Source of the DNA: Candidatus Gilichinskyi gelida
Lineage (GTDB): Bacteria > Acidobacteriota > Thermoanaerobaculia > Gp7-AA8
DNA length: 64,000 nt
Reading direction: 5' to 3'
Assembly (NCBI GenBank): GCA_038040385.1
Contig: JBBPII010000005.1
Coordinates: 288,858 to 352,857 of the forward strand
The position numbers were made by a program, and so were the translations under genes. Below the pieces are notes generated by a model. That model was given only the letters and a program-made list of their open reading frames with translations. It did not search any database and was not told where the DNA came from. Positions 7,940 to 64,000 of the stretch are shown piece after piece (positions within the stretch are counted from its first letter, which is position 1; each line of letters opens with the position of its first letter).

Positions 7940-8085
7940 GCAGTTCGTCCCATCAACCGGGCCCGTTGGAGTTCTTGACGTGCGGCGTTCCGAGCCTTCG
8001 TGCGATTGATTCGCCACCAGGTTTCCCCCCGTCGAATGTGCTGCGCCGCGAGATCGCTGATTTCGATCGGAAGCCCATCGGTCAT
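7936..8085 (-). CDS. small ORF, possibly a truncated toxin-like gene
   Basis: 49 aa, MTDGLPIEISDLAAQHIRRGETWW...; 4-bp overlap with the upstream small gene; too short for a full RelE/ParE toxin. Confidence 0.2.
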   Translation of the reverse strand: MTDGLPIEISDLAAQHIRRGETWWRINRTKARNAARQELQRARLMGRTA

Positions 8086-8303
8086 TCGCGGCTTTGCATC
8101 TCTCGGATGAGGTCCTCGGCAGAAATGGTCTCGCCGCGCTCGCACTGAGCGATCGACTGAAGGAGAACTCTCTTCAGCTCATCGGTGACCTCGAACGTCT
8201 CCTCGTGATCCTCCGCGAGCAGCGTAACCTCAGCGCCCTCAGGAAGTTCGCCTTCGTAGACAATCTGGCCGTGAACGACTTTCCCCGACGCGATTCGCAT
8301 TTC
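8082..8303 (-). CDS. small antitoxin-like protein (swapped-hairpin/DUF104-like N-terminus)
   Basis: 73 aa, MRIASGKVVHGQIVYEGELPEGAEVTLLAEDHEE...; its stop overlaps the downstream ORF start by ATGA. Confidence 0.3.
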   Translation of the reverse strand, partial: EMRIASGKVVHGQIVYEGELPEGAEVTLLAEDHEETFEVTDELKRVLLQSIAQCERGETISAEDLIREMQSRE

Positions 8304-8340
8304 CGTTGATTCTAGCCTGAATCGGCCACATCGCTGTCCA

Positions 8341-8402
8341 GGACCGCCGCCCCTCAACGCAGGCGGGACGCCTGCGGGCCAGCCGGCGAGGACGCCGGCG
8401 TT
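8341..8402. repeat. repeat family B (GC-rich palindromic element), short copy B1
   Basis: ...GCAGGCGGGACGCCTGCGGGCCAGCCGGCGAGGACGCCGGCGTTCC... matches the right half of the family B consensus; lies 3' of the desaturase gene. Confidence 0.55.
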
Positions 8403-8405
8403 CCC

Positions 8406-9389
8406 CTACTCCGCTGCGAGCTGCGAGCCGCGCGCGGCGAGCTCCTCCCACTTCGTGTGCGGCTTGCGGTTCAGCACGACGTACTGCCAGACCAGTTCGC
8501 CGTAGCCGTGCGCGGCGATGCCGCGCTTTTCGTAGAAGGGCATCAGCAGCTTCTGCAGGCGCGGGAGGTTGTAGAACGGCACGCCGGGGAAGTAGTGGTG
8601 CTCGAGGTGGTAATTCGAGAAGAGGTAGGCGGCGTCCCAGAACCAGGAGCCCTTCATCAGCGTCGACCAGTTCGCGGGATCGGCGGGGTCGATGTCGTAG
8701 TGCTGCCCGATACGGTTGACGGCGAAGGCGACCGGGAAGATGAAGAAGACCGGGACGATGTAGAGCTTCCAGGCCAGGAACCAGCCGCCGGCGTACGCGA
8801 TGGCGGCCAGGATGACGAGCTGGATGACGATGGTCGCCCAGCGCTCGAACGCGATGCGGCGCTGCAGCTCCGGCTCGTACGTCGACGTCTCCCGTTTCGC
8901 CGCGCGGAAGTAGATGGGGAACAGCGCGGGCGTGAAATAGAGCGCCTTGAACCAGCGTGCGTTGCGCTTGGGGGAGAGGTGGTGGCGCTTCGGATCGTCT
9001 TCGTACGATCCGAGATTGGCGTGATGGTCGAGGTGCCAGCGGGTGAACTGCGACGCCGCCATCCCGCTCGGCGTGGCGTAGAGCAGTCCGAGGATGCGGT
9101 AGGCGCGCTCGCTGGACTGCGTCAGCACCGCGCGGTGCACGACTTCGTGCAGCAGCACGCTGAAGTTGAATACCGCAAACCCCGCGACGACCGCGAACGG
9201 CAGCCAGAGGTACCAGTGGTCGAAGTGCGCGATGGCGACGCCCGACAGCACCAACGCCGCGACGTTCGCAAACGCCACCAGCGCATGCAGCAGCGGCCGC
9301 TTCTCGTGCAGACGGCGCAGCTCATCTGTTGGGATCTCGGCGGCAAGATCCCGCTTGAGCTGGCGTGCGTGGTCGTCGTAAAAAGCCAT
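8406..9389 (-). CDS. membrane fatty acid desaturase
   Basis: Three His boxes (HEVVHR, HLDHH, HLEHH) and multiple TM segments. Confidence 0.85.
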   Translation of the reverse strand: MAFYDDHARQLKRDLAAEIPTDELRRLHEKRPLLHALVAFANVAALVLSGVAIAHFDHWYLWLPFAVVAGFAVFNFSVLLHEVVHRAVLTQSSERAYRILGLLYATPSGMAASQFTRWHLDHHANLGSYEDDPKRHHLSPKRNARWFKALYFTPALFPIYFRAAKRETSTYEPELQRRIAFERWATIVIQLVILAAIAYAGGWFLAWKLYIVPVFFIFPVAFAVNRIGQHYDIDPADPANWSTLMKGSWFWDAAYLFSNYHLEHHYFPGVPFYNLPRLQKLLMPFYEKRGIAAHGYGELVWQYVVLNRKPHTKWEELAARGSQLAAE

Positions 9390-51128: not shown

Positions 51129-54038
51129 ATGCCCTCCCGCACCTCGATTGCTATTTTCATCGCGCTCGCCTTAGGCGCGCTCCCCGCCTTCGCGCAGACG
51201 TTCGTCTTCCACCTGCGCGGCGACCAGGAAGTCCCCCCGGTGCCGAGCGTCGCCACCGGCGGCTGCATGATGGAGCTCAATCAGCCGATGGCGCAGACGA
51301 CCATCACCTGCGTTCACAACGTGGTCGGCGCGACGGTCATGCACATCCACCGCGGCGCGCCCGGCGTCAACGGCCCCATCGTCTTCGACCTCGGCGATCC
51401 CGCCAGCCCGGTCACCGCGACCTGGATCGGGATGACGCCTGCCGACATCGCCGACATGCTGGCCGGCAACTTCTACATCAACATCCACACGGCCGGCCGG
51501 CCGGCCGGCGAGATCCGCGGTCAAATTCTGACGCGCACCGTCGACCTGGTGGCCTTCACCGCGAACGGCGCGCAGGTGGTGCCGCCGAACGCGTCGGCGG
51601 CCACGGCGAACTGCACCGCGGACCTCGACAACCCCGCCACCTCGCTCGCGGTGAACTGCACGCACAATTTCGCCTCGCCGCAGAGCGCGCACATTCACGA
51701 GGCGCCCGCCGGCCAGAACGGGCCGATCGTTTTCACCTTCGCCAGCCCGAATTCGCCGCTGTCGGCGAACGTGCCGACGACGCCGCAGCTCGTCGCCGAC
51801 TTCGCCGCCACCTTCCTCTATCTCGACATCCACGGCGCCGGCGGCACCGAGGCGATACCGGCGGATGAGATCCGCGGCCAGATCGGAACGCCGCCCGCAC
51901 CGCCGAGCACCGGAACGATCGAGATCGTCAAGACGACGCAGCCGGCCGGCGGCACCGGTTTCACCTTTACGGACAATGTTCCCGGCTCGCCGGGAACCTT
52001 CGCGCTCAACGACGGCCAGACGCGCACGTTTTCCGCGGTTCCCGCCGGCACGTACACCGTCAGCGAGAACGACCCGACCGTGACGCCCGGCGGCTACACG
52101 CTCGGCGACCTCTCGTGCACCGACGCCGACAGCACCGGCGACACGGCCGCCCGCACGGCGACGGTCCGCCTCGCCGCGGGCGAGACGGTGCGCTGCACGT
52201 TCCGAAACCTGCGCACCGCGGCCACCGACACGCTGTTCGTCTTTCATCTGTCCGGCGACCAGGAGGCGCCGCCGGTCTCCACCACGGAGCGCGGCGGCTG
52301 CATGGGCCGCTTCAACAGCGGCGCCAGCGAGCTCACGCTCATCTGTACTCATGATGTTGCGTCGCCGACGGTCATGCACATCCATCGCGGCGCTCCCGGA
52401 GTCAACGGCCCGATCGTCTTCGACCTCGGCAGTCCCGTCAGCCCGGTGACCGCCACCTGGAGCGGGATGACGCCGGCGGACGTGGCCGATCTCCTCGCCG
52501 GCAACCTGTACATCAACATCCACACCGCGGGCCGGCCGGCGGGAGCGATTCGCGGCCAGATCCTGCCGCGGACCGTCGACGTCGTAAACTTCACGCTCGA
52601 CAGCAGCCAGGTGGTGCCGCCGGGAACCAGCACCGCAACCGGAAACTGCACCGCCGACCTCGACAACCCCGCGACGGCGCTCGCCGTCCAGTGCACGCAC
52701 AACCTGCCGTCGCCCAACCAGGCGCACGTCCACCAGGCGCCCTTCGGCGCGAATGGGCCGATCGTCTTCACCTTCCCCACGCCCGCCAGCCCGTTCTCGG
52801 CGAACGTGCCGATGACGCCGCGGCTGGTCGCCGATTTCGCCGCGTACTTCCTCTACGTCGACGTCCACGGCGTCGCCGGCTCGGAGAGCACGCCCGCTGA
52901 CGAGATCCGCGGCCAGATCGGCGCGCAGGCAGCCCCACCGGCCACCGGCACGATCCGCATCGTCAAATCGACGGCGCCCGCGGGCGGCAGCGGCTTCGGC
53001 TTCACCGACAACGTTCCCGGCTCGAGCGGCAGCTTCACTCTCAGCGACGGCGGCGTGCGGACCTTCACCAGCGTCGCCGCCGGCACGTACACGATTACGG
53101 AGAACAATCCGGCCGCAAGCGGCTACTCGCCGACGGACGTCAACTGCGACGACGCGGACAGCGCCGGCGACCCGTTCGCGCGTACGGCGTCCGTTCATCT
53201 GCAGGCCGGCGAAACGGTCACCTGCACGTTCCACAATCTGCAGTCGCAGGCCGCATCGTCGCTGTTCGTCTTCCACCTCTCCGGCGACCAGGAAGTGCCG
53301 CCGGTGGCCACGGCGGCGACCGGCGGTTGCTTCATGCAATTCACCGCCACGTTGAGCCAGCTCTCCATGGTGTGCACGCACAACGTCGGCAGCCCGGTGC
53401 AGATGCACATCCACCGCGGCGCCCCCGGCGTCAACGGCCCGATCCTCTTCGACCTCGGCAACCCGAGCAGCCCCGTGGAGGCCGTTTGGACCGGCATGAC
53501 GCCCTCCGACGTCGCCGATCTCATGGCGGGAAACCTGTACATAAACATCCACGCCAGCGGCCGGCCGGCGGGGGAAATCCGAGGACAGATCCTTCCGCGG
53601 ACCATCGACCACTTCAGCTTCGTCCTGACCGGCAGCCAGATGGTGCCGCCGACCGATTCGACGGCCACCGGCAATTGCGCGGCGGACCTGTCGGACGATG
53701 CCGGGTCGCTGTCCATCCAGTGCCGCCTCAGCATCGCGAACCCGACCGCGATCCATCTGCACGACGGACCTCCAGGGGTGAACGGGCCGGTGGTCTTCGA
53801 CTTCCCCCCCAGCAGTTCGTTCGCGGGCGCCGCGCCGCTGACGCCGCGGCTGGTGGCGGATTTCGCCGCCGGCTTCCTCTACCTGGACATTCATTCGGCG
53901 AACGATCCCGACGGCGAGATCCGCGGACAGCTCACCGCTTCGTCGGCGTCCGCGGCGGCCATCCCGATGTTCGACGGATGGATGATGATGCTGCTCGCCG
54001 CGGCGCTGGTAAGTCTCGCGGTGTGGCGGATGCGTTAG
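51129..54038 (+). CDS. secreted 6x CHRD-domain repeat protein with C-terminal TM anchor
   Basis: Signal peptide. Six CHRD-like units (e.g. TFVFHLRGDQEVPPV...MHIHRGAPGVNGPIVFDLG; ...AHIHEAPAGQNGPIVFTF) interleaved with Ig-like GTIEIVKTTQPAGGTGFTFTDN... modules. C-terminal ...IPMFDGWMMMLLAAALVSLAVWRMR. Confidence 0.7.
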   Translation: MPSRTSIAIFIALALGALPAFAQTFVFHLRGDQEVPPVPSVATGGCMMELNQPMAQTTITCVHNVVGATVMHIHRGAPGVNGPIVFDLGDPASPVTATWIGMTPADIADMLAGNFYINIHTAGRPAGEIRGQILTRTVDLVAFTANGAQVVPPNASAATANCTADLDNPATSLAVNCTHNFASPQSAHIHEAPAGQNGPIVFTFASPNSPLSANVPTTPQLVADFAATFLYLDIHGAGGTEAIPADEIRGQIGTPPAPPSTGTIEIVKTTQPAGGTGFTFTDNVPGSPGTFALNDGQTRTFSAVPAGTYTVSENDPTVTPGGYTLGDLSCTDADSTGDTAARTATVRLAAGETVRCTFRNLRTAATDTLFVFHLSGDQEAPPVSTTERGGCMGRFNSGASELTLICTHDVASPTVMHIHRGAPGVNGPIVFDLGSPVSPVTATWSGMTPADVADLLAGNLYINIHTAGRPAGAIRGQILPRTVDVVNFTLDSSQVVPPGTSTATGNCTADLDNPATALAVQCTHNLPSPNQAHVHQAPFGANGPIVFTFPTPASPFSANVPMTPRLVADFAAYFLYVDVHGVAGSESTPADEIRGQIGAQAAPPATGTIRIVKSTAPAGGSGFGFTDNVPGSSGSFTLSDGGVRTFTSVAAGTYTITENNPAASGYSPTDVNCDDADSAGDPFARTASVHLQAGETVTCTFHNLQSQAASSLFVFHLSGDQEVPPVATAATGGCFMQFTATLSQLSMVCTHNVGSPVQMHIHRGAPGVNGPILFDLGNPSSPVEAVWTGMTPSDVADLMAGNLYINIHASGRPAGEIRGQILPRTIDHFSFVLTGSQMVPPTDSTATGNCAADLSDDAGSLSIQCRLSIANPTAIHLHDGPPGVNGPVVFDFPPSSSFAGAAPLTPRLVADFAAGFLYLDIHSANDPDGEIRGQLTASSASAAAIPMFDGWMMMLLAAALVSLAVWRMR
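51195..53990 (+). repeat. three tandem ~1.03-kb coding repeats (units start near 51195, 52230, 53260; the third lacks the Ig-like module)
   Basis: Protein-level super-repeats (2 CHRD + 1 Ig-like) with recognisable DNA-level similarity. Confidence 0.65.
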
Positions 54039-54844
54039 CGCCTGAACGCCCCCGCCCACCACTCCCCCTTCTCGCGCTCCGCCACCATCGGCAACGGACA
54101 GGCCGCGACGACCTCGGCGCGCTTGTCGAGAAGGATTCCGCTCAAGATCAACGTCCCGCCGACGTGCCTCACAACCTCATCGAGCAGCGGGAGGATGACC
54201 TCGGGAATGATGTTCATGGTCACCACGTCGAAGCGTCCGCCGCGCAGCGCTTCGACGCCGCCGATGAACAGCGGCATGCGCGACGGCTCGACGCCGTTGC
54301 GCGCGCGGTTGTCGCGCAGCGCGCCGTAGGCGTCGGTGTCGTTGTCGAAGGCGATGGCCTTCGCCGCGCCGAGGCGGAGCATGGCCAGGGCCAGGATGCC
54401 GCTGCCGGAGCCGACGTCGAGGCCGCGGCCCAGCGCGAGGTCGAGCGTCTCCAGCAACTCGATGCAGAGCGAGGTCGTCTCGTGCGAGCCGGTGCCGAAG
54501 GCCTGCTCCTGCGGGATCACCAGGGCGTGGCGGCGCGTGTCGGGCGGAATGAGCTTGGCGTCGGGAGCGACGACGAACGATTCGCCGATGACGATCGGCT
54601 GTAGTAACTGTTGATATAGCTGAAGCCAGTCCACCGGCGCGCGCTCGGAGGCGCGGATCTCGACGTCGGCGAAGAACGCCGCCGCTTCGTCGCGGTCCTC
54701 CGCCGACTCGAAGTAGGCGGTGATGAGCGTCGCGGCGTCGACGTCATCGGAGGTGCTGCCGGTGGAGCGGGTGAGGAAAAGGCGGGCGATCATCTCCTCT
54801 TCGCGCTTCGGATCGCAGGAGATCTCGAGGAGGAAGTCGTTCAT
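54035..54844 (-). CDS. prmA: ribosomal protein L11 methyltransferase
   Basis: LDVGSGSGILALAML SAM motif and PrmA layout. Confidence 0.8.
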   Translation of the reverse strand: MNDFLLEISCDPKREEEMIARLFLTRSTGSTSDDVDAATLITAYFESAEDRDEAAAFFADVEIRASERAPVDWLQLYQQLLQPIVIGESFVVAPDAKLIPPDTRRHALVIPQEQAFGTGSHETTSLCIELLETLDLALGRGLDVGSGSGILALAMLRLGAAKAIAFDNDTDAYGALRDNRARNGVEPSRMPLFIGGVEALRGGRFDVVTMNIIPEVILPLLDEVVRHVGGTLILSGILLDKRAEVVAACPLPMVAEREKGEWWAGAFRR

Positions 54845-54895: not shown

Positions 54896-55996
54896 TTATT
54901 TCGCTCCCTCGTTGCCGCTCTTTTCCTTTGGTTTGACCGTGGAGCGGACGACGATGATCTTGTTGAGAATGTCGAACCAGAACGGCGCTCCGAGCGTCAC
55001 GGCCGCGGCGGTGATGAGGATGCCGAGAATCTTGGAGAGCCAGTCCAAGCCGGTTGCGGGTCGGCTATGGTTCTTCCACCCGATCGGGAGGCCGAAAGAC
55101 TCCATCTTGTCCAAGCTCCCGGTCAATCGTTTGAGGGTCGCATCGATCGCCTCGTGATCCGCCTTTGTCTTCGCTTCCCCCTTCGCCTCCACCTGCCCCT
55201 TCGCCTCCACCTGCCCCTTCGCCTCCACCTGCCCCTTCGCCTCCGCCGCCTTCGCCTCTGCTGCCGCCTTCGCCTTCGCCTCCGCCGCCGCCTCCTCACG
55301 CAGCTTCTGGGTCACCTCGGTCGTCGCCGCGTTTACGACCGCCGCGCGCAGCGCCTTGTCGGTCGCCAGTTTCTTGGCCACCGCGATACTGTCGACGTTC
55401 AGCGCGCCTGCGGCCGCTAGTCCAACCAAGGCGAGAATCCAGTGCGTCCGCCGCTTGTACCAACCGGAGACGCGGTCCATGCTGGAGTTGAACCACTCCT
55501 CAACGTTCTCCCGCGCCTTCGCGGCATTGTTCGCGGCGGCGGTGATCAGCCGCCCAACCGCCTGATCCACGCCGCCGATGGCGCCCGCGAGCGGGTTAGC
55601 GATCGGCGCGACGGCCGCGGGCGCCGGATCAACCGTGCCCGCAGCCGGTGGCGCGGCCGCGGTGGCACCGGCGAGCGGCACGTTCAGTACGTCCATGAGG
55701 GCCAATGCAAAGTTGCGGGCGGGGATGTAGGACGGCAGCTTGCGCTTGGCCCACATGCCCGCTGTGGTGACGTTCGGAAAGTTGCCGCGGTAAAGGCTGG
55801 CGATGAGTGGGTGGTCATAGACCTGCGCGACGATCGCCGGGTTGTTTATCAGCTCGCCGATTCCCTCCAGCAGATCGCGCCCGCGGTATTGCAACAGCGT
55901 CTCGATGATCTCGATCACCGCCGAGGCGATGAGACTCATCATCAGGTACAAGAAAACCACGCCGATGGCCACGTCGAGCATTTCGAGACCGAACAT
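54896..55996 (-). CDS. uncharacterised membrane protein, paralog A (family with 59525..60535)
   Basis: N-terminal TM MFGLEMLDVAIGVVFLYLMMSLIASAVIE; conserved ...PSYIPARNFALALMD..., ...AKARENVEEWFNSSMDRVSGWYKRR... and C-terminal TM ...LGAPFWFDILNKIIVVRSTVKPKEKSG; contains a GQVEAK tandem repeat. Confidence 0.5.
   Translation of the reverse strand: MFGLEMLDVAIGVVFLYLMMSLIASAVIEIIETLLQYRGRDLLEGIGELINNPAIVAQVYDHPLIASLYRGNFPNVTTAGMWAKRKLPSYIPARNFALALMDVLNVPLAGATAAAPPAAGTVDPAPAAVAPIANPLAGAIGGVDQAVGRLITAAANNAAKARENVEEWFNSSMDRVSGWYKRRTHWILALVGLAAAGALNVDSIAVAKKLATDKALRAAVVNAATTEVTQKLREEAAAEAKAKAAAEAKAAEAKGQVEAKGQVEAKGQVEAKGEAKTKADHEAIDATLKRLTGSLDKMESFGLPIGWKNHSRPATGLDWLSKILGILITAAAVTLGAPFWFDILNKIIVVRSTVKPKEKSGNEGAK
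55175..55290. repeat. 18-bp tandem coding repeat (GQVEAK)x3 within an Ala/Lys-rich low-complexity tract
   Basis: CCCCTTCGCCTCCACCTG repeated on the plus strand (coding on minus). Confidence 0.6.
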
Positions 55997-56027
55997 TCCG
56001 TCCTCCCTCGTCGGGGATTGACGGACA

Positions 56028-56633
56028 TCAGCCGGGATTTCCGCCGAACGCGTCGCGATAGTCCGCCATCGCCGCCTCGATCACCGCGGCCGCGTGCGCG
56101 TAACCGTAGGTCCGCGCGATGCGGACGCGCGGCGGCTCGCCGGGAACGAGCTTGTAGGTGGTGAAGTAGTGCTGGAGGCGCTCGATGAGCACGGCGGGGA
56201 TGTCGTCGATCTCGCCGGCCTCCCCCCACACGTAGTCTCCCTGCAGGACGGCGATGATCTTGTCGTCGGCCTCATCGCGATCGATCATCTGCAGGCCGCC
56301 GACGACCCGGGCGGGGATGACGATCTCCGACTTGGTGATCGGCCGCTCGCTGAGGACGCAGATGTCGAGCGGATCGCCGTCGCCGCGCGGCGCCGACGCC
56401 AACTCCGCCACCTTCGCCGCGCAGTAGGTCTGCGGGATGAAGCCGTACAGCGCCGGCGGCTGCGACGACGTCCGCTGCGGCCGGTCGACCCGCAAGTAGC
56501 CGCTGGCCTTGTCCACCTCGTACTTCACCAAATCGAACGGCGTGATCTCGATGTACGCATTGACCACGCGCGGTGCGTCCGCGCCGGGCTCGAGACCGTG
56601 CCAAGGGTGGGGGCGGAAGCGCGAAAAGGCCAC
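56028..56633 (-). CDS. ppa: inorganic pyrophosphatase (family I)
   Basis: ...[10 protein letters not shown]... and the conserved Asp cluster; 201 aa. Confidence 0.9.
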
Positions 56634-56642
56634 GCGCGGAGT

Positions 56643-56924
56643 CTATCCCGCGCTCCGTACCGGGACGCGCACGCCAGCAGCAGGGACACCCCGAAGGATG
56701 CCTTGGACAGACAGGTCTTCGTCAATTTCCGGCCAATGAATGCCAAAGCCAGCGCCTGCTATCTGCCACTCGTTACGCTGGGTCGCCGTTGCGTGTAGCA
56801 AGCGTGGATACCAGACGAGTGGCACGCTGACCGTGCGGCCGTCTGCGAGGTCGACCACGAGCGTGTCCTCGGTGACGTGAACGCCTACGATGCGCTCGCC
56901 GGGTTTAGGTTCCGAAGTATTCAT
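56643..56924 (-). CDS. DUF2442 domain protein
   Basis: ...[50 protein letters not shown]... Confidence 0.7.
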
Positions 56925-57180
56925 TCCAAGCCTGCATCAGCTTCAGCTGGTTCTCACTGATCATCGTTTCGATCGTGCGCAACTCACGTGCCGGAAAGCC
57001 AAAGTTGACCACGAGAGCCACGGGTTGGAGCCAGAACTTGGCCGACGACTCGTCTCGATCTACGTGCACATGGGGCGGCTCGCCTGGCTCGTGGCTGTAA
57101 AAGTACACCCGGTAGGGACCGTTGCGCAAAACCGTTGGCACGCGCCGAAAGTGTAGCGCGGCAGGCCGGGAGCGATGCAC
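56905..57180 (-). CDS. DUF4160 domain protein
   Basis: ...YRVYFYSHEPGEPPHVHVDRDESSAKFWLQP...FGFPARELRTIETMISENQ...; likely GTG start near 57138; overlaps DUF2442 by 20 bp. Confidence 0.7.
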   Translation of the reverse strand: MHRSRPAALHFRRVPTVLRNGPYRVYFYSHEPGEPPHVHVDRDESSAKFWLQPVALVVNFGFPARELRTIETMISENQLKLMQAWNEYFGT

Positions 57181-57344
57181 GGCGTGAGAGAGTTCACTGT
57201 TTCCCGAGGCGCGACAGCAAGCGACCGTCCACTCCGGGTAGAACCGATCCAGCGTGCAAACCCACCCCGTCGGAAGGCCTCCATCACGTGCGGATGCGGC
57301 CGACCCGGGAGCAACTCCGTTGTCAGGATTATTGCGAGTGCCTT

Positions 57345-57854
57345 CTAAGGTGATACCAATTCCAAAGCCACATCTCTGAAAAGTTCAATGTAGGCCTCGA
57401 AGAGATCGTTGGCGGATCGAGGCTTCACGCCTGAAGGCGCAACGTTCTCGAGCAGCAGATCACCAACCGAGTAACCCTGCCTAAGTTTACGCCTCCGCAG
57501 CCTTCGTGCGACCTCGGTGAATGCTGTTCGCGATTTTCTCGAGGTGTGCGCGACGCGGTTTCGGATGACCGCCGCGTCGTCTAAAGCAGTCTTGACTGGT
57601 CCGAGCTGTTTGGCATACGGATTTGCCTTTGTGAAGAATAGTTCAGCTCGACGCAAGGTATCTTCCACGGTCCAGTTTAGGTAGTGTTTCTCGGGGTCGA
57701 AACCGGGTTTCCCGGCGATAACCGCGTAGGCATCTTTGATTGAGGTTGCAGGGCCGAACCTCAACTTCGGAACTTCGGCGTACTGTGATTTCGCCCCCGC
57801 TAGATATCGCACAAACGAGTGTTCGAGAAATTGCTCGAAAGCACTTAGGCGGTG
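57345..57854 (-). pseudogene. C-terminal fragment of an IS-interrupted gene (possible HEPN-like, R-x4-H motif)
   Basis: The ORF is open from the IS boundary (HRLSAFEQFLEHSFVRYLAGAKSQ...) and contains ...AAVIRNRVAHTSRKS...; the N-terminal fragment lies at 59140..59496. Confidence 0.35.
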
Positions 57855-59139
57855 TCAAACATTAACATTTACAGATCGGCGCGTGGCCGAATGATGTAGT
57901 TCCATTCACCGTGAAACGAATCAGGGGCGAGGTTGACTGTGGCGATCTCTTTGTCACTCACCTTGCGGCCAACAGGGTACCGACGTCTGTCCAATCGGCA
58001 CGTTACCTTCAGCCCCTTGGCAGTGGTTGTCTTGGCGATTAGACGCACGATGGTTTCGTAGTCGCGCAGGGGCTCGCCACGCCAGTTCGACGAGATGAAT
58101 GAGAACAAGCGATGCTCGACCTTGTTCCATTTGCTTGTTCCTGGAGGGAAGTGGCACACCACGATGGAGAGGCCAGCCCAGTCCGCTAGTCCCTGCAGCC
58201 CGATCTTCCATTGCCGAAGGCGGTAGCCATTGCTGCCGCCGGCGTCCGCGGTAATCAGGAGAGTGTTGGCTTTCGGATAAAGGCGCCGTCCTTCAGCGCG
58301 CCACACCCTCGAATGGATGCTACCGCAAACGCACCGGTGTCATGATCGGTCCCCACGTTCACGAACCCGGTATTGCGACCCAAGTCGTAGATGCCGTATG
58401 GGTACGCTCGCGGCACCGATGGATCGGGGAAGTCGTGAACGTTCACTCTCTGAGGAGTTTTCGTCTTCAGCCATTGCCGACCCTCGTTCTGGTAATTGCC
58501 AAGGATCTCTTTCTTCTTCGTATCGACAGAGATGACTGGTCGCTTCCGAGCGAGGGCCTCGCGGACTTTTTCATTAATGTATTGAAACTGCGCGTCGCGG
58601 TCCGGGTGATCGCTGCCCTCGTCGGTCTTGCGGTTCCCCTGTAGGCTGTAGTCCATCTGTCGCAGCAACTGTGCGACCTTCTCGTGGCTCACCGAGTGGT
58701 CCTGGGCGGCCAGTTCAGCCGAGAGAGCGCGCGTACTCTTGCTTGTCCATCTCAGCGGCGAGTCCGGGTCCCCACGCGTGAGCGGTTCGACCAGCGCTCC
58801 AGTTTGCTCGGTAGGTCGGGATCGAGCGCGACCAGGGACGGCCGTCCCCCACCCCAGCGCCGAACGCGTCCCGGCGGCAGCGGCGGATCTTCCAATTCTT
58901 GCAATCCCTTCGTGATCGTGACTCGAGACAATCCGCAGGCCTTGCTGACGGTCGTCACGCCTCCGTGGCCGAGTTCACGAGCCTCGCTCGCGGCAAACAA
59001 CCGCCGCGCCCGCTCGTCCAGATGAGGCCAAAGGAGAGCCACCTTCTGCTGAAGCGCACGCACGGTCGTCATGCTCAAGGAGCTTAACCTGAAGGTCTCT
59101 GAATGTAAACGTTATTACTTGACGACGCCTTACCGCAGC
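57855..59139 (-). mobile_element. IS630-family insertion sequence with fragmented transposase
   Basis: Imperfect terminal inverted repeats GTCAAACATTAACATTTACAG (57855..) and CTGAATGTAAACGTTATTACTTGAC (..59139). Transposase in 3 frames: HTH part 58752..59078, middle 58255..58692, DDE part 57869..58306. Confidence 0.65.
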
Positions 59140-59496
59140 AAGAAAGGAGAGCGAGATGACTTTTCTTGCTTGCGCTGGATGCAAGGCGTTGATGTTAACT
59201 GCATCATAAGTCCACTCGCAAAACGGGCGAACTGCCGCGTAAAGGTTGCTTGCCGAGTCGAGCGCTCGATCAAGCTCCCAGACGGTGGACGTCAGCGCCA
59301 TTGGCTTTGGCATCGCAAAATCGGAGCGCCATGATATCTCCGTCGCGCAGTGGTGTGCTTGGCGATAGAGACCCTTGCGAAGGCCTAACTTTGTAGTAGT
59401 GCAGGATATCCAGCGCCGCTTTGCGGCGTAGCACGTTGCGTTGACGGTATTTTCGCGCAACTCACTGATATTGCTCGCGTGTGCTGCAAACGACAT
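59140..59496 (-). pseudogene. N-terminal fragment of the IS-interrupted gene
   Basis: MSFAAHASNISELRENTVNATCYAAKRRW...LSFLAAVRR ends exactly at the IS right inverted repeat. Confidence 0.35.
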
Positions 59497-59524
59497 CGCG
59501 TTTATGCAGCGGTATATGCGCTGC

Positions 59525-60535
59525 TCACTGGCTGGGCGGCGGCGCCTGCGGCTCTTTCGGCCCCTCCGTCCCGCTCTTCTCCCGCGGCTTCACTGTCGAG
59601 CGGACCACCATGAACTTGTTCAGGAGGTCGAACCAGAACGGCGCGCCGAGGCAGACGGCGAAGGCGGTGAGCAGCCAGCCGACCAGGGTCAGGCCGCCTG
59701 CGGCGCTGAGGTTTTGCTTCCAGCAGCTCTGCCAGCAGGGATCAAGGATCTTCACCGTTTGCCGGTCGCATTTCCGGCACGACGGCCAGCCGAGCGGGAG
59801 TCCCAGCCGCCCGAGCTCTGTACTGACCGAGTCGAACTCCTTCGTGATGTCGCCGGCGGGCTGCTTGGCGTAATTCGTGGCGATGGCCACGATGGCCTCG
59901 CGCTTCGCCTTGTTGGTCATCAGCTCGCGGAGGATGCGCACGGTGTCGATGTTCAGCCCGACGGCGACGATCAATCCGATGACGAACAGCGCGCGCTGCG
60001 CGCGCCGCTTGTACCCGCCGGAGACCCTGTCCATCGCCGTGTCGAACCAGAACTCGATGTTCTCGCGCGCCTTCTGTGCATCGCCGGCGGCGGCGTTGAC
60101 CAGCGTGAGCACCGCGTGGCGCGCCTGATCGGCGAGCGGATCGCCGGTCATCCCGCCCACCAGCGCCGCGGTGCTGACGCCCGCCCCCGTCCCCGGTCCC
60201 GCCGCACCCGCCACGCCCTTGTGCTGCGAGGGGTCGGGGCTGATCAGCAGATCCATGATGGCCAGCGCGAAGCTGCGCGACGGGATGTACGACGGCAGGT
60301 CGCGCATGCCCGGCTTGTAAGTGCCCTTGAACAGACCGTTGATCAGCGGATGGTTGTAAAACCGGGCCACCAGGTTCGGGTCGCGGAGCAGCTCGCCGAT
60401 GCCGCGCTCCAGGTCCGACGATCGCCGCTTGAGCACCGCCTCGGCGCTTTCGACGATCGCCGAGCAGAGGAGGCTGACCAGGAGATAGACGAATGCGATT
60501 CCGATCGCCACGTCGAGCATATCCAGTCCGAACAT
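59525..60535 (-). CDS. uncharacterised membrane protein, paralog B
   Basis: Collinear with paralog A (MFGLDMLDVAIGIAFVYLLVSLLCSAIVE..., ...PSYIPSRSFALAIMD..., ...QKARENIEFWFDTAMDRVSGGYKRR..., ...LGAPFWFDLLNKFMVVRSTVKPREKSG...); has 4 extra Cys (CRKCD...CWQSCW). Confidence 0.5.
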   Translation of the reverse strand: MFGLDMLDVAIGIAFVYLLVSLLCSAIVESAEAVLKRRSSDLERGIGELLRDPNLVARFYNHPLINGLFKGTYKPGMRDLPSYIPSRSFALAIMDLLISPDPSQHKGVAGAAGPGTGAGVSTAALVGGMTGDPLADQARHAVLTLVNAAAGDAQKARENIEFWFDTAMDRVSGGYKRRAQRALFVIGLIVAVGLNIDTVRILRELMTNKAKREAIVAIATNYAKQPAGDITKEFDSVSTELGRLGLPLGWPSCRKCDRQTVKILDPCWQSCWKQNLSAAGGLTLVGWLLTAFAVCLGAPFWFDLLNKFMVVRSTVKPREKSGTEGPKEPQAPPPSQ

Positions 60536-60544
60536 GGGAAGCCC

Positions 60545-60922
60545 TCAGTCCGCGGAGTCGTCTTCGAGCATCGCCCGCCGCGACGCGAAGTAGAGGGTGA
60601 AGGGAACGAGTCCGAATCCCACCGCCCACCACGCCACGCCGAACGCGGCGAAGCGCTCGCTGGCGGTAGTGTTCACCAGGACGGCGATGGAGAAGCAGAT
60701 CAGTCCCGCGGTGCGGAAGCGCGCCACGTTCTCATTGAGCGCCGCCCACTCCTCCAGCCGCGGCGGGCGGTTCGAGGCCAACAGCGGCAGGCACAGCAGC
60801 GCGGCGGGGGCGAAGAGCACCGCGGCGATCGGCCGCTGCGCGCGGACGAGGACGTAACAGGCGGCCGCGAAAATCGCGATCGCGGCGACGGCGGCCGCAA
60901 GGCGAAGGCGAAAACTGATCAT
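60545..60922 (-). CDS. small polytopic membrane protein
   Basis: 125 aa, 3-4 TM; ends 10 bp upstream of paralog B, so the two are likely co-transcribed. Confidence 0.4.
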   Translation of the reverse strand: MISFRLRLAAAVAAIAIFAAACYVLVRAQRPIAAVLFAPAALLCLPLLASNRPPRLEEWAALNENVARFRTAGLICFSIAVLVNTTASERFAAFGVAWWAVGFGLVPFTLYFASRRAMLEDDSAD

Positions 60923-61055: not shown

Positions 61056-62180
61056 TCAGCCGGTGAAGAGGTTCTTCACCTTGTCGACGAAGCCGCGCGG
61101 CTCGGGCGGGGTCTCCCCCTCGCTCTCCGCGTAGCGCTCCAGCAGCTCGCGCTGCGCGTCGTCGAGCGCGGTGGGGATGGTCACGCCGACGTGCACGTAG
61201 TGGTCGCCGCGCCCCGCGCCCTGCAGGAACTGCACGCCTTTTCCGCGCAGGCGGAAGATCTGGCTCGGCTGCGTGCCGGGGGGGATGCGCAGCGACTCGG
61301 TGCCGTCGATGGTCTCGGTCTCCACCTCGGCGCCGAGCGCCGCCTGCGTGAACGAGATGTTCTGCTCCGAATGGATGTCGTATTCGCGCCGCGTGAACCG
61401 CGGATGTTCCTGGACGCTGATGAAGACATAGAGATCGCCGGCCGGGCCGCCGTTGAATCCGCCCTCCCCTTCGCCCTGCACGCGGAGGCGCGAGCCGTCG
61501 TCGACGCCCGCGGGAACCTTGACCGAGATCGTCTTCGACTCCCGCACCCGCCCCGCGCCGTTGCAGTCCTGGCAGGGATCCTTGATGACCTTCCCAGCGC
61601 CGCCGCATTGCGGGCAGGTGCGCTGCACGGTGAGGAAGCCGCCCTGCGTGAAGCGGATCTGCCCCTTCCCGCCGCACCCGCTGCAGGTGACCGGCTGCGT
61701 GCCCGGCTTGGCGCCGTTGCCGTGGCAGGTGGCGCAGGTGGCGATGCGGGGCACGTCGATGGAGACGTCCTTGCCGAACACCGCCTCCTCGAACTCGAGC
61801 ATGAGGTCGTAGCGGACGTCGTTGCCGCGGGCGGGGCGGGTGGCGCGGCGGCGGCCGGTGCCGAAGAAGTCGCCGAAGCCGAAGAGATCGCCGAGGATGT
61901 CGGTGAAGTCGGAGAAGTGGCTGGGATCGAAGCCGCCGCCCATCCCGCTGGTCGCGGCGTGGCCGTAGCGATCGTAGCGCGCGCGCTTCTCCTGGTCGGC
62001 GAGCACCTCGTACGCCTCGGCCGCCTCCTTGAATCTCTCCTCGGCCGTGGAATCGTCCGGGTTCTTGTCAGGGTGGTACTTCACCGCCAGGCGGCGAAAG
62101 GCCTTCTTGATGTCGTCGACGCTCGCCTCGCGGACGACGCCGAGCACTTCGTAGTAATCGCGTTTTTCAGTGGTGGCCAT
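61056..62180 (-). CDS. dnaJ: molecular chaperone DnaJ
   Basis: J-domain HPD ([17 protein letters not shown]); four CxxCxGxG zinc-finger repeats; C-terminal domains. Confidence 0.92.
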
Positions 62181-62185
62181 AGGAG

Positions 62186-64000
62186 CTAAGTCGAACTATC
62201 GGGCGCTCCCATCTTCATCGGGTTGTAGAGCATGACGCTGGTGAGGATGCGCGATGCTCCCTGCAGCTCGAAGATGGCGTCGGCCAGCCGCTGTTTCTCT
62301 TCGGCTGCGATGGCCTCCTTCGCGCGGCTGATGATGGCCTGCACTTTGTCGCGGTCGTCGTCGTTGAGCAGCTTTCCGAACTCCCTGAAGACCTTCTCGT
62401 TGGTGTAAATCATTCCCTCGAGCTTGTTTTGCAGCATGCGGATCTCGCGGCGCTGGGCGTCGGCGCGGGAGTGCTCGGCCGCTTCGTTGACCAGGCGCTC
62501 AATCTCGTCCTTCGACAGCCCGCCGGCGGGATTGATCTGCACGCCGGTGGACTGGCCGGTGGCCTGGTCGCGGGCGGTGACGTTGACGATGCCGTTGGAG
62601 TCGATGGCGAAGATGACCTCGATCTGCGGCACGCCGCGCGGCGCGGGAGGGATGCCGACCAGGTCGAATTTGCCGAGCGATTTGTTTTCGCGGGCGAACT
62701 CGCGCTCGCCCTGCAGAACGTGCACCTGCACCTTGCTCTGGTTGTCGGCCACAGTGGTGAAGATCAACGAGTTCTTGGTGGGGATTGTGGAGTTTCGCTC
62801 GATGAGCTTGGTGAACAGGCCGCCGTGGGTCTCGATGCCGAGCGACAGCGGCGTGACGTCGAGCAGCACCATGTCCTTGATGTCGCCGCGCAGGATGCCG
62901 CCCTGAACGGCCGCGCCGACGGCGACCACTTCGTCCGGATTGATGTTGCGGTTCGCCGACTTACCGAAGACCTTTTCCACCGCCTCGATGACTTTCGGCA
63001 TGCGCGTCTGGCCGCCGACCAGCACCACTTCGTCGATCTGCCGGTTGACCACGTTCGCCTGCCGCATGGCGTCGTTGACCGGATCGATGGTCCGCTGGAT
63101 GAGGTCCTCGACCATCCGCTCGAACTCGTGGCGCGCCAGGACGCTGTTCAAATGTTTGGGACCGGAGGCGTCGGCGGAGATGAACGGCAGGGTGATGCGC
63201 GTCTCCGGATTGACCGAGAGCTCGTGCTTGGCCCGCTCCGCGGCTTCCTTCAGCCGCTGGAGGGCCATGCGGTCCTGGCGGAGATCGATGCCGCTGTCAC
63301 GGTGGAAGCCCTCGATCAGCCAGTCCATGATCCGCTTGTCGAAGTCCTCGCCGCCGAGGTAGGTGTCGCCGGAGGTGGAGAGCACTTCGAAGAGGCCGTC
63401 CTCGAGCTTGAGGATGGAGATGTCGAACGTCCCGCCGCCGAGGTCGTAGACGGCGATGATCTGGTTTTCCTTGTTGTCGAGGCCGTATGCCAGCGCCGCG
63501 GCGGTCGGCTCGTTGATGATGCGGAGGACGTCGAGGCCGGCGATCTTGCCCGCGTCGCGCGTCGCCTGGCGCTGCGAGTCGTTGAAATACGCCGGGACGG
63601 TGATGATCGCCTCGGAGACGCTCTCGCCGAGGAACTCCTCGGCGAAGGCCTTGATCTCCATCAGCACGAATGCGGAGATCTCCTCGGGTGAGTACTCGCG
63701 GTCGCGGATCTTGACCTTGATGTCGCCATTGGAGGCGGAGACGATCTGATACGGCAGCACCTGTTTGGCGCGGCCTACTTCGTCCGACTCGTACTTGCGG
63801 CCGATCAGCCGCTTGATGGCGAAGACGGTGTTGAACGGATTGGTGATGGCCTGCCGCTTGGCGATCTGCCCCACCAGCCGCTCGCTGTCCTCGGTGAATC
63901 CCACTACCGAGGGGGTGGTGCGGCTCCCCTCCCGATTGGGAATCACCTGCGGCGTCGTGACATCCACGACCGCGACGCAGGAATTGGTCGTCCCGAGGTC
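62186..64000 (-). CDS. dnaK: molecular chaperone DnaK (Hsp70), 5' end truncated by the window edge
   Basis: Hsp70 signatures ([19 protein letters not shown]...); the reading frame continues to position 64000 (...[12 protein letters not shown] would lie beyond). Confidence 0.95.

What the first reader, a model, noticed from the sequence alone, without database searches (positions are those of the whole stretch)
54896..60535. Two paralogous uncharacterised membrane-protein genes, one flanking the 56.6-59.5-kb low-GC island (bounded on its other side by ppa); paralog B co-transcribed with a small membrane protein
The products of 54896..55996 and 59525..60535 are collinear (N-terminal TM MFGL[ED]MLDVAIG..., PSYIP[AS]R[NS]FALA[LI]MD, [AQ]KAREN[VI]E[EF]WF[ND][ST][SA]MDRVSG.YKRR, C-terminal TM LGAPFWFD[IL]LNK[IF][IM]VVRSTVKP[KR]EKSG). 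Both have a long variable Ala-rich/coiled-coil middle. Paralog B gained four Cys residues and is preceded by a 125-aa polytopic membrane protein. Nothing in the sequences matches a family I can name. The N- and C-terminal TM segments have some flavour of MotA/TolQ/ExbB-type channel subunits, but this is speculative. The duplicated, diverging pair of novel membrane proteins, with an accessory island next to paralog B, is the most system-like unexplained feature of the window.
Basis: inference. Interest (0 to 1): 0.55.

Follow-up and report, generated by a model that had tools for sequence, protein, structure and literature searches.

The report
Unnamed holin-like membrane protein pair
The two genes belong to a very large, unnamed family of three-helix bacterial inner-membrane proteins. 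In many other bacteria this family sits directly in front of signal-less cell-wall-cutting enzymes, so it probably lets such enzymes through the membrane, but the two copies here have no enzyme partner and lie inside the heat-shock chaperone operon.

Summary
54896-55996(-) and 59525-60535(-) encode collinear paralogs (40% identity, E 2e-78), and a 125-aa membrane protein gene lies 9 nt upstream of B.

Neither paralog matches any Pfam, NCBIfam, PADLOC, PHROGs or PDB entry. The family is nevertheless huge: 16,131 clusters at 50% identity, in at least eight phyla. It is essentially absent from phages.

New evidence on function:
- In 33 of 80 species-level loci the next gene on the same strand is a peptidoglycan hydrolase or PG-binding protein.
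- These partners come from at least four unrelated catalytic families.
- Of the 28 amidase and M15 partners, most start within a few nt of X's stop; all 28 lack a signal peptide.
- Occasional partners are phospholipases, a caspase and a trypsin fusion.
- Charge bias indicates an N-out/C-in three-TM topology with a basic cytoplasmic tail.

Best reading: a non-phage, holin-like gate for leaderless lytic enzymes.

The window's copies are orphans. They sit in a conserved acidobacterial dnaK-dnaJ-(small TM)-X-ppa-(X)-prmA operon, which carries a CIRCE site in a relative.

The low-GC island is an unrelated IS/toxin-antitoxin insertion. The MotA/ExbB idea is not supported.

The parts
59525..60535 (-). 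Paralog B (336 aa), a member of the unnamed three-TM family called X here. It is 100% identical to NCBI MAG protein AABO58_10760 (Acidobacteriota).
   Evidence: ORF; exact database match and more than 5,400 homologs; AF2 model all-helical, mean pLDDT 80.
54896..55996 (-). Paralog A (366 aa), same family. It is 40% identical to B, and its closest relative is P0171 at 63%.
60446..60514 (-). B TM1 (about residues 8-30), with family-conserved G12, S21 and E29. The N-terminus is predicted to be periplasmic.
   Evidence: Hydropathy, K+R flank counts and conservation over 82 sequences.
59999..60445 (-). B conserved cytoplasmic region (about residues 31-179). It carries the HPL, LPSYIP and ARENIExWF..MDRVSGxYKRR motifs and a disordered Ala/Gly/Pro-rich insert.
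59936..59998 (-). B TM2 (about residues 180-200), with conserved N195.
59696..59935 (-). B variable loop 2 (about residues 201-280), predicted periplasmic. It contains the GLPxGW motif and the four Cys of B.
   Evidence: Loop length varies from 57 to 140 aa across the family, and Cys occur mostly in even numbers; alignment.
59528..59695 (-). B TM3 (about residues 281-301, motif G..T..A...GAPFWFD) plus the basic cytoplasmic tail LNKxxVVRSTVKPxEKS.
55178..55275 (-). 18-bp tandem repeat (5.6 copies) that encodes the (G)QVEAK repeats in loop 2 of paralog A.
60545..60922 (-). 125-aa membrane protein gene 9 nt upstream of B. By eye it has about four hydrophobic segments. It is lineage-restricted (61 homologs only) and some relatives show a weak DUF2178 hit.
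56028..56633 (-). ppa (inorganic pyrophosphatase), lying between the two paralogs.
54035..54844 (-). prmA (L11 methyltransferase), the last gene of the array.
61056..63967 (-). dnaJ (61056-62180) and dnaK (62186-63967, which runs to the window edge) upstream on the same strand.
   Evidence: ORFs; orthologous loci annotated HSP70/DnaJ; tblastn.
56643..59500 (-). Inserted low-GC island, judged not part of the X unit. It holds DUF2442 (56643-56924), DUF4160 (56905-57180), an unassigned 155-aa ORF (57345-57812), ISAzo13-family transposase split over 57869-58306, 58255-58692 and probably 58752-59078, and an unassigned ORF at 58975-59496.
   Evidence: the island is absent from L081, L083 and L089.

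Best explanation
A and B are two anciently diverged copies of a very widespread, non-phage bacterial inner-membrane protein, called X here.

X has three TM helices with a predicted N-out/C-in topology. It also has:
- a conserved cytoplasmic region of about 150 aa between TM1 and TM2;
- a length-variable periplasmic loop between TM2 and TM3;
- a strongly conserved basic cytoplasmic tail.

Across bacteria the X gene is repeatedly followed, often with overlapping or nearly abutting stop and start codons, by a leaderless peptidoglycan hydrolase. The hydrolases belong to several unrelated folds. Occasionally the partner is a leaderless phospholipase or protease instead.

The most likely mechanism is that X acts like a holin. 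It would accumulate in the cytoplasmic membrane and, when triggered, open or organise a passage that gives folded, signal-less lytic enzymes access to the cell envelope. This could serve autolysis, cell-wall remodelling or type-10-like secretion.

The two window copies have no adjacent enzyme. They are resident genes of the dnaK-dnaJ-(small TM)-X-ppa-(X)-prmA operon of this acidobacterial lineage. They are therefore probably expressed with the chaperones and must be non-lethal until gated.

Status of each step:
- Shown: paralogy, family size, absence from phages, gene coupling, lack of leaders on partners, and synteny.
- Predicted from sequence: topology.
- Inferred: pore or gate activity, the trigger, and the role of the orphan copies.
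For: Paralogy: 40% identity, E 2e-78.

Family size and spread:
- 16,131 representative clusters at E<=1e-3, of which 7,419 are at E<=1e-30.
- At least 574 GTDB species. The 80 listed loci include Acidobacteriota, Bacteroidota, Pseudomonadota, Gemmatimonadota, Planctomycetota, Verrucomicrobiota, Nitrospirota, Deinococcota, Chlorobiota and Thermodesulfobacteriota.

Conserved neighbours:
- The only widely conserved neighbours are two clusters directly downstream on the same strand.
- One is Amidase_2 plus PG_binding_1, in 16 loci. The other is Peptidase_M15_4/VanY, in 12 loci.
- Pfam confirms these two.
- Pfam also finds GH19 in 2 loci, PF11860 Muramidase plus PG_binding_1 in 2, and PG_binding_1 in 1.
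- That totals 33 of 80 loci.
- Further cases lie nearby: Amidase_3 140 nt upstream, GH25 nearby, and GH19 plus PG_binding_1 about 3.6 kb downstream.
- RefSeq annotation independently shows a hypothetical protein followed 1 nt later by N-acetylmuramoyl-L-alanine amidase.

Coupling and lack of leaders:
- Among the 28 amidase and M15 partners, 15 have an annotated start overlapping X's stop by 4 nt or lying 0-5 nt after it. The other 13 ORFs run back into X, so their starts are ambiguous, but the catalytic domain begins right at X's stop.
- In all 28 the catalytic domain starts at the N-terminus with no hydrophobic leader.
- The amidase partner is homologous to phage endolysins and LysA proteins, with 1,057 phage records matched.

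Other partners are lytic or cell-death-type enzymes:
- Tle1-like phospholipase, PLC-type phosphoesterase and a caspase with a 4-nt overlap.
- Patatin.
- A C-terminal trypsin fusion.

Topology:
- K+R counts in the flanks are 0.0 (N-terminus), then 3.0 and 3.6 (loop 1), then 2.3 and 0.4 (loop 2), then 3.0 (tail).
- Cys in loop 2 occur mostly in even numbers.

Window context:
- hrcA-grpE-dnaK-dnaJ-small-X-ppa-prmA in L081 and L083.
- Both X positions occupied in L089.
- X in the alternative position in L037 and L001.
- A CIRCE operator and a sigma-70-like promoter lie upstream of hrcA in L081. No convincing internal terminator was found.
Against: - No experiment exists, and there is no sequence or fold similarity to any known holin.
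- X is two to four times larger than canonical holins and has a large conserved cytoplasmic region that holins lack.
- 47 of 80 loci have no adjacent PG hydrolase. That includes both window copies and most of their clade. No homolog of the partner enzymes was found in the 64-kb window.
- Apparent co-transcription with dnaK/dnaJ/ppa/prmA argues against a simple lethal hole-former.
- The phylogenetic non-independence of the 80 loci inflates the raw 33/80 count. The diversity of hydrolase folds argues for repeated independent recruitment, which offsets this concern.
Confidence: 0.45

Rival explanations
1. X is a membrane-anchored regulator or scaffold rather than a passage. Its cytoplasmic region and tail would bind, sequester or activate the partner enzyme. 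Alternatively X would sense envelope or proteotoxic stress and control cell-wall remodelling, with export occurring by another route.
For: - X has a large conserved cytoplasmic region and an invariant tail.
- Many family members are orphans embedded among housekeeping genes.
- In the window lineage X lies in the CIRCE-controlled chaperone operon, which fits a non-lethal, stress-linked role.
Against: - The partners have no signal peptide and often carry PG-binding domains. They must therefore cross the membrane, and no other export component is conserved nearby.
- One X family pairs with many unrelated enzyme folds. That is easier to explain by a generic passage than by specific binding.
Confidence: 0.2
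2. X is the membrane-disrupting effector of a conflict, abortive-infection or programmed-cell-death module. The linked hydrolases, phospholipases and proteases would be co-effectors or activators.
For: - Partners include caspase, trypsin, patatin and Tle1-like domains, which are typical of bacterial cell-death systems.
- Some loci lie in variable regions with transposases or trypsin-MAP3K_TRAF_bd proteins.
Against: - There is no PADLOC hit.
- No sensor NTPase or nuclease is conserved next to X.
- Most contexts are housekeeping.
- The window copies are vertically conserved in a core operon.
Confidence: 0.12
3. X is an ion-conducting channel subunit of the MotA/TolQ/ExbB type or a mechanosensitive channel (the JGI label on one member).
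For: - X has three TM helices with conserved polar residues (E29, N195, D303) in or at the ends of the helices.
- One JGI record names P0066 a 'large-conductance mechanosensitive channel'.
Against: - No MotA_ExbB or MscL Pfam hit appears, even at E<=1, in 31 members.
- No Foldseek match to any PDB chain at E<=0.001.
- No ExbD/TolR/MotB-like partner is present. The small upstream protein is lineage-specific.
Confidence: 0.04
4. The orphan copies have a housekeeping role in protein or membrane quality control linked to DnaK/DnaJ, unrelated to cell-wall hydrolases. On this reading the hydrolase linkage elsewhere would be a secondary recruitment.
For: - X is stably placed between dnaJ, ppa and prmA in several acidobacterial genera, with tight spacing and a CIRCE site upstream.
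Against: - The synteny is confined to one lineage. Elsewhere the upstream and downstream genes are unrelated.
- The core residues are conserved at 90% or more across both the hydrolase-linked and the orphan clades. This suggests a single molecular activity.
Confidence: 0.1

Closest known systems
Class I phage holins (lambda S105 type) and holin-endolysin lysis cassettes
   Same: - Three TM helices with predicted N-out/C-in topology and a charged cytoplasmic C-terminal tail (the holin definition is from established knowledge).
- In 33 of 80 loci the gene lies immediately upstream of a leaderless PG hydrolase or PG-binding protein that is homologous to phage endolysins, often with overlapping or nearly abutting stop and start codons.
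- One membrane partner is combined with many unrelated hydrolase folds.
   Different: - No sequence or fold similarity to any Pfam or PHROGs holin family.
- 300-450 aa instead of about 70-150 aa.
- A conserved cytoplasmic region of about 150 aa and a periplasmic loop of 57-140 aa.
- Essentially absent from phage genomes: 0 of 50,697 phage records and 1 of 2.9 million IMG/VR contigs.
- Often an orphan, and sometimes in housekeeping operons.
Type 10 secretion systems (holin plus leaderless endolysin used for non-lytic secretion, e.g. Serratia ChiWX and Salmonella TtsA)
   Same: - A chromosomal, non-prophage pairing of a membrane protein with a signal-less M15 peptidase or muramidase. The concept is described in PMC9527704.
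   Different: - T10SS holins are recognisably phage-derived small holins, and the loci carry a cargo gene (chitinase or toxin) and often spanins.
- Here no conserved cargo or spanin is seen, and X has no phage relatives.
RcGTA lysis pair rcc00555 (endolysin) / rcc00556 (holin; Pfam GTA_holin_3TM by my recollection)
   Same: - A cell-encoded, vertically inherited endolysin-holin locus conserved across a bacterial order (PMC5026251).
- Two X loci pair with PF11860 muramidases. By my recollection, not checked here, PF11860 is the family of rcc00555.
   Different: - X gives no hit to any Pfam model, GTA_holin_3TM included.
- Gene order is X first and then the enzyme.
- No GTA or phage structural genes are nearby.
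MotA/TolQ/ExbB stator-type channel subunits
   Same: - An inner-membrane protein with three hydrophobic helices and a sizeable cytoplasmic portion.
   Different: - No profile or fold match.
- No ExbD/TolR/MotB partner.
- A different conserved motif set.

Membership tests
Known holin families (Pfam Phage_holin_*, GTA_holin_3TM; PHROGs holins) | Significant match to a curated holin profile | tested here: not met
   A and B give 0 Pfam families at E<=0.1. The 31 family members give only scattered chance hits at E<=1. PHROGs gives nothing relevant.
Holin (functional class) | Small size (about 60-150 aa) | tested here: not met
   The window copies are 336 and 366 aa, and family members are mostly 300-450 aa.
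Holin (functional class) | At least one TM domain plus a hydrophilic, highly charged C-terminal tail; class I means three TM helices, N-out/C-in | tested here: met
   Three hydrophobic segments are present. K+R flank counts favour N-out/C-in, and the tail carries a mean of 5.8 K+R and 4.6 D+E. This is a prediction only, with no experimental topology.
Holin (functional class) | Encoded next to a leaderless endolysin | tested here: inconclusive
   Met for 33 of 80 family loci. Not met for either window copy, and no partner-type hydrolase was found in the window.
Holin (functional class) | Forms lethal or triggerable membrane lesions that release the endolysin | not testable with these tools
   This needs expression and permeabilisation assays.
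Holin (functional class) | Phage or prophage origin | tested here: not met
   No tblastn hit in 50,697 phage genomes. One weak locus in IMG/VR. No BFVD fold match. Neighbours are cellular genes.
MotA/TolQ/ExbB | PF01618 profile match, ExbB-like fold and an ExbD/TolR/MotB partner gene | tested here: not met
   No Pfam hit. No PDB Foldseek match. The upstream small protein has no ExbD/TolR hit and occurs only in one lineage.
MscL (a JGI label on P0066) | PF01741 profile match; protein of about 130-140 aa with two TM helices | tested here: not met
   The precomputed Pfam field is '-' for P0066. P0066 is one of the 31 scanned members, and MscL is not among the 25 of 29 families listed at E<=1. Size and topology also differ.
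Type 10 secretion system | Holin plus leaderless PG hydrolase plus a linked secreted cargo (with or without a spanin) | tested here: inconclusive
   The first two features are seen in many family loci. No conserved cargo or spanin cluster was found. None of the features is present in the window.
DUF2178 (small 125-aa partner) | PF09946 match above the gathering score | tested here: not met
   The window protein has no Pfam hit at E<=0.1. Only a weak precomputed PF09946 hit appears on a few orthologs.

The most novel reading that the evidence does not exclude
X defines a previously unrecognised, cell-encoded (non-phage) family of large holin-like gates.

- The family comprises thousands of sequence clusters across most Gram-negative phyla.
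- It would give leaderless peptidoglycan hydrolases, phospholipases and proteases access to the envelope.
- This would make it a general bacterial autolysis or type-10-like export device.
- In Thermoanaerobaculia-like Acidobacteriota, two diverged copies are wired into the HrcA/CIRCE heat-shock operon. That would link proteotoxic stress to controlled membrane opening.
Probability: 0.3. Interest if true: 0.78.

Novelty: new variant of a known kind. Interest (0 to 1): 0.6.

Why it matters
How signal-less cell-wall hydrolases leave the cytoplasm outside of phage lysis is an open question. It bears on autolysis, vesicle and eDNA release, and type 10 secretion.

This family has more than 16,000 sequence clusters and no name. 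It has no phage relatives. Its gene is repeatedly placed directly in front of leaderless hydrolases of at least four unrelated catalytic families. That gives a concrete and easily testable candidate for a native bacterial route.

If the model is confirmed, a very large family now annotated only as 'hypothetical protein' would gain a function, as would its orphan hydrolase partners. It would also raise the question of why some Acidobacteriota keep two copies inside the chaperone operon.

Tried and rejected
Negative searches for A and B:
- Pfam, NCBIfam, PADLOC and PHROGs scans gave nothing beyond low-complexity noise such as TolA or DndD coiled-coil hits.
- PDB sequence search with a single sequence and with the profile found nothing below E 0.5.
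- Foldseek of the AF2 model against PDB and BFVD found nothing below E 0.5.

Leads tested and set aside:
- Membership of the RcGTA holin rcc00556 family. I could not retrieve that sequence. X hits no Pfam model, and papers give only the locus description. This is rejected as membership and kept as an analogy.
- Phage origin. tblastn against phage genomes and an IMG/VR scan were negative.
- A hydrolase partner elsewhere in the window. tblastn with 39 partner sequences gave only alternative-frame artefacts over the 3' end of B.
- The island as part of a system. It is rejected because it is absent in relatives.
- Promoter and terminator scans of the window region were uninformative.
- No CIRCE site lies inside the window; by comparison with relatives, hrcA would lie beyond the window edge.

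Literature searches for a described equivalent found only phage-derived T10SS holins.

Full report
**1. What is in the window**

On the minus strand the gene order is:
- dnaK (62186-63967, running to the window edge)
- dnaJ (61056-62180)
- a 125-aa membrane protein (60545-60922)
- paralog B (59525-60535, 336 aa)
- a low-GC stretch (about 56.6-59.5 kb)
- ppa (56028-56633)
- paralog A (54896-55996, 366 aa)
- prmA (54035-54844)

A and B align end to end at 40% identity, E 2e-78. Both retain every one of the 54 columns that are invariant in a 31-sequence family alignment.

The middle of A contains an 18-bp tandem repeat (5.6 copies, 55178-55275) that encodes QVEAKG-type repeats.

The same arrangement is present in independent Logan assemblies.

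**2. The island is an insertion, and the pair is old**

The low-GC stretch carries:
- a DUF2442/DUF4160 pair;
- an ISAzo13-family transposase broken into overlapping ORFs;
- two ORFs with no match in four libraries.

Orthologous loci show the following gene orders:

| Locus | Gene order |
|---|---|
| L081, L083 | hrcA-grpE-dnaK-dnaJ-small TM-B-ppa-prmA; single X copy, no island |
| L089 (GCA_016853205.1) | small TM-B-ppa-A-prmA; both copies, no island |
| L002 | dnaK-dnaJ-X-ppa-prmA |
| L037 | dnaJ-ppa-X-prmA |
| L001 | X-prmA |

Both slots, dnaJ|ppa and ppa|prmA, are therefore used in this acidobacterial lineage.

A is no closer to B than to members from elsewhere. Its best hit is P0171 at 63% identity, and that protein lies on the same contig as a B ortholog. 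The simplest history is an ancient duplication within the operon followed by differential loss. The IS/toxin-antitoxin island was inserted later.

In L081 a near-perfect CIRCE operator with one mismatch lies at 2695-2721. It has zero matches in 200 shuffles. A 10/12 sigma-70-like promoter sits directly upstream of hrcA. Spacing through the operon is tight (47, 12 and 12 nt, then an overlap), and no convincing terminator was found. Co-transcription with the chaperone genes is plausible but not shown.

**3. The small partner**

The 125-aa protein has only 61 homologs, all at least 58% identical. At least 14 of them have the same longest-contig length as a B ortholog, which suggests shared contigs. 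Direct gene calls show the adjacent pair in L081, L082, L083 and L089.

It is a lineage-specific companion of B and not a family-wide component. It has only weak DUF2178 similarity in some orthologs.

**4. The family**

B retrieves more than 5,400 proteins, all annotated 'hypothetical' and none with a Pfam domain.

A profile search of 1.84 billion cluster representatives finds 16,131 clusters at E<=1e-3 and 7,419 at E<=1e-30.

In GTDB species representatives, at least 574 species carry it. The 80 listed loci span Acidobacteriota, Bacteroidota, Alpha-, Beta- and Gammaproteobacteria, Gemmatimonadota, Planctomycetota, Verrucomicrobiota, Nitrospirota, Deinococcota, Chlorobiota, Thermodesulfobacteriota and Myxococcota.

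The family is rare on plasmids, with 12 of 72,556 records, and is always annotated 'hypothetical protein' there.

It is essentially absent from viruses:
- no tblastn hit in 50,697 phage genomes;
- no PHROG;
- one weak locus among 2.9 million IMG/VR contigs;
- no BFVD fold match.

The AlphaFold2 model of B is all-helical with mean pLDDT 80. It has no Foldseek match in the PDB.

A Pfam scan of 31 members at E<=1 gives only scattered chance hits. No holin, MotA_ExbB or MscL family appears among them.

**5. Architecture**

Hydropathy gives three TM segments at about residues 8-30, 180-200 and 281-301 of B.

Mean K+R counts in the 15-residue flanks over 82 sequences are:

| Segment | Mean K+R |
|---|---|
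| N-terminus | 0.01 |
| After TM1 | 3.0 |
| Before TM2 | 3.55 |
| After TM2 | 2.3 |
| Before TM3 | 0.41 |
| After TM3 | 3.0 |

By the positive-inside rule this pattern gives N-out, loop 1 cytoplasmic, loop 2 periplasmic and C-in.

Loop 2 varies from 57 to 140 aa. When it contains Cys, they mostly come in twos or fours: 16 sequences have an even number against 4 with an odd number. This fits a periplasmic, disulfide-forming location.

Positions at least 90% conserved across both major clades include G12, S21 and E29 (TM1). They also include H62 and P81-Y83-I84-P85 in the cytoplasmic region. Near TM2 they are E161, W163, M168, R170, G173, Y175 and R177 (juxtamembrane helix) and N195 (TM2). In loop 2 they are P247, G249 and W250. 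The block G286..T290..A293..G297-A298-P299-F300-W301-F302-D303 lies in TM3. R312, K316 and P317 lie in the tail.

**6. The functional clue**

I clustered all ORFs within 5 kb of the X gene in the 80 loci. Only two widely shared neighbour clusters emerged, and both lie immediately downstream on the same strand.

| Partner directly downstream | Loci |
|---|---|
| Amidase_2 + PG_binding_1 | 16 |
| Peptidase_M15_4 / VanY | 12 |
| GH19 | 2 |
| PF11860 N-acetylmuramidase + PG_binding_1 | 2 |
| PG_binding_1 protein | 1 |
| **Total** | **33 of 80** |

One further locus has an SH3_3 protein downstream.

Other contexts add:
- Amidase_3 140 nt upstream;
- GH25 two genes away;
- GH19 plus PG_binding_1 about 3.6 kb downstream;
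- RefSeq-annotated 'N-acetylmuramoyl-L-alanine amidase' starting 1 nt after X's stop in Hymenobacter and Caballeronia;
- a 'cell wall hydrolase' ending 44 nt upstream in Rhizobium phaseoli.

Among the 28 amidase and M15 partners, 15 have an annotated start that overlaps X's stop by 4 nt or lies 0-5 nt after it. The other 13 ORFs run back into X, so their starts are ambiguous, but the conserved catalytic domain begins right at X's stop. In all 28 the protein starts directly with the catalytic domain and has no hydrophobic N-terminal segment. The Amidase_3, GH25, GH19 and PG-binding partners also lack such a segment.

The amidase partner is homologous to phage endolysins and LysA proteins, matching 1,057 phage records.

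Upstream neighbours are not conserved and are ordinary cellular genes. No phage structural genes appear among them.

A minority of partners are other lytic or cell-death-type enzymes:
- Tle1-like phospholipase, PLC-type phosphoesterase and a caspase-domain protein with a 4-nt overlap;
- patatin;
- a C-terminal trypsin-like fusion;
- on alphaproteobacterial plasmids, a leaderless vanadium haloperoxidase operon.

**7. Interpretation**

Four features together are the signature of a holin-endolysin cassette:
- one membrane protein combined with many non-homologous enzymes;
- the enzymes are leaderless and act on the envelope;
- the gene order is fixed, with X first;
- the genes abut or overlap, which suggests translational coupling.

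The predicted N-out/C-in three-TM topology with a charged C-terminal tail matches class I holins, by the established definition.

X nevertheless differs from known holins. It is not homologous to any of them. It is two to four times larger. It has a conserved cytoplasmic region and a periplasmic loop. It is a cellular family and not a phage one.

I therefore file it as working like a holin or type-10 gate, but not as a member of any holin family.

In an NJ tree the hydrolase-linked members dominate one half. The window copies fall in the other half, which is mostly orphan. That half still contains two amidase-linked acidobacterial loci, L011 and L015.

No homolog of the partner enzymes is found in the 64-kb window. 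For the window copies the inference is therefore a transfer by homology, and their placement in a chaperone operon means the activity must be gated or non-lethal.

**8. Alternatives**

The alternatives considered are:
- a scaffold or regulator rather than a passage;
- a conflict or cell-death effector;
- an ion channel;
- a proteostasis-linked housekeeping role.

Each is weighed in the rival-explanations section. None has direct support beyond context.

**9. Verdict**

The MotA/ExbB flavour and the link to the island are not supported.

The new content is that this is a very large unnamed family with a strong, repeated genomic link to leaderless cell-wall hydrolases. All mechanistic steps beyond gene linkage and predicted topology remain inference.

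Noticed in passing
window 57345-57812 (-): A 155-aa ORF in the island contains an R-x4-H motif (RNRVAH), which is reminiscent of HEPN nucleases. It has no hit in Pfam, NCBIfam, PADLOC or PHROGs.
   Followed up: partly
window 57869-59078 (-): An ISAzo13-family (PF07592) transposase is split into two overlapping 145-aa ORFs that cover profile positions 40-166 and 169-308. A further upstream 108-aa ORF has no Pfam hit. The split could be a frameshifted or decaying IS, or programmed frameshifting. The same split is seen in independent assemblies.
   Followed up: partly
window 56643-57180 (-); also L084 12808-13331: A DUF4160/DUF2442 gene pair (toxin-antitoxin-like) lies in the island. An unrelated X locus, L084, also has such a pair about 4.5 kb away. 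This is probably coincidence.
   Followed up: no
window 51129-54038 (+): A 969-aa protein has six CHRD domains (E 6e-140) interleaved with SpaA-type prealbumin-fold domains. By eye it has a signal peptide and a C-terminal hydrophobic anchor. The orthologous slot in L081 holds a 611-aa CHRD/SpaA protein.
   Followed up: partly
L081 2657-2721: A sigma-70-like promoter (TTGACA-16-TACATT) is followed by a CIRCE operator with one mismatch, directly upstream of hrcA. This is the operon that contains the B ortholog. The equivalent region lies outside the window.
   Followed up: yes
L096-L098 (Paracoccus, Rhizobium, Agrobacterium plasmids): A divergent X subgroup (28-30% identity) ends a conserved operon: three hypothetical proteins, a leaderless vanadium-dependent haloperoxidase, then X. 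This hints at non-hydrolase clients.
   Followed up: partly
L061 6966-8732; protein P0152: In L061, X is coupled by a 4-nt overlap to a 588-aa protein with a caspase (Peptidase_C14) domain. P0152 is a natural fusion of X to a C-terminal trypsin-like peptidase.
   Followed up: partly
window 54896-55996 (-): The exact sequence of paralog A was not returned from the 5.8-billion-protein collection, and its best hit was 63% identical. Paralog B and the small protein from the same MAG contig were found at 100%. The cause could be a different gene call or a word-index effect of the low-complexity repeat. I did not resolve this.
   Followed up: no
L100 (IMGVR_UViG_3300041411_000407) 8001-9110: This is the only IMG/VR locus with a relative of X, at 39% identity over residues 1-230 only. 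I did not examine whether the contig is truly viral.
   Followed up: no
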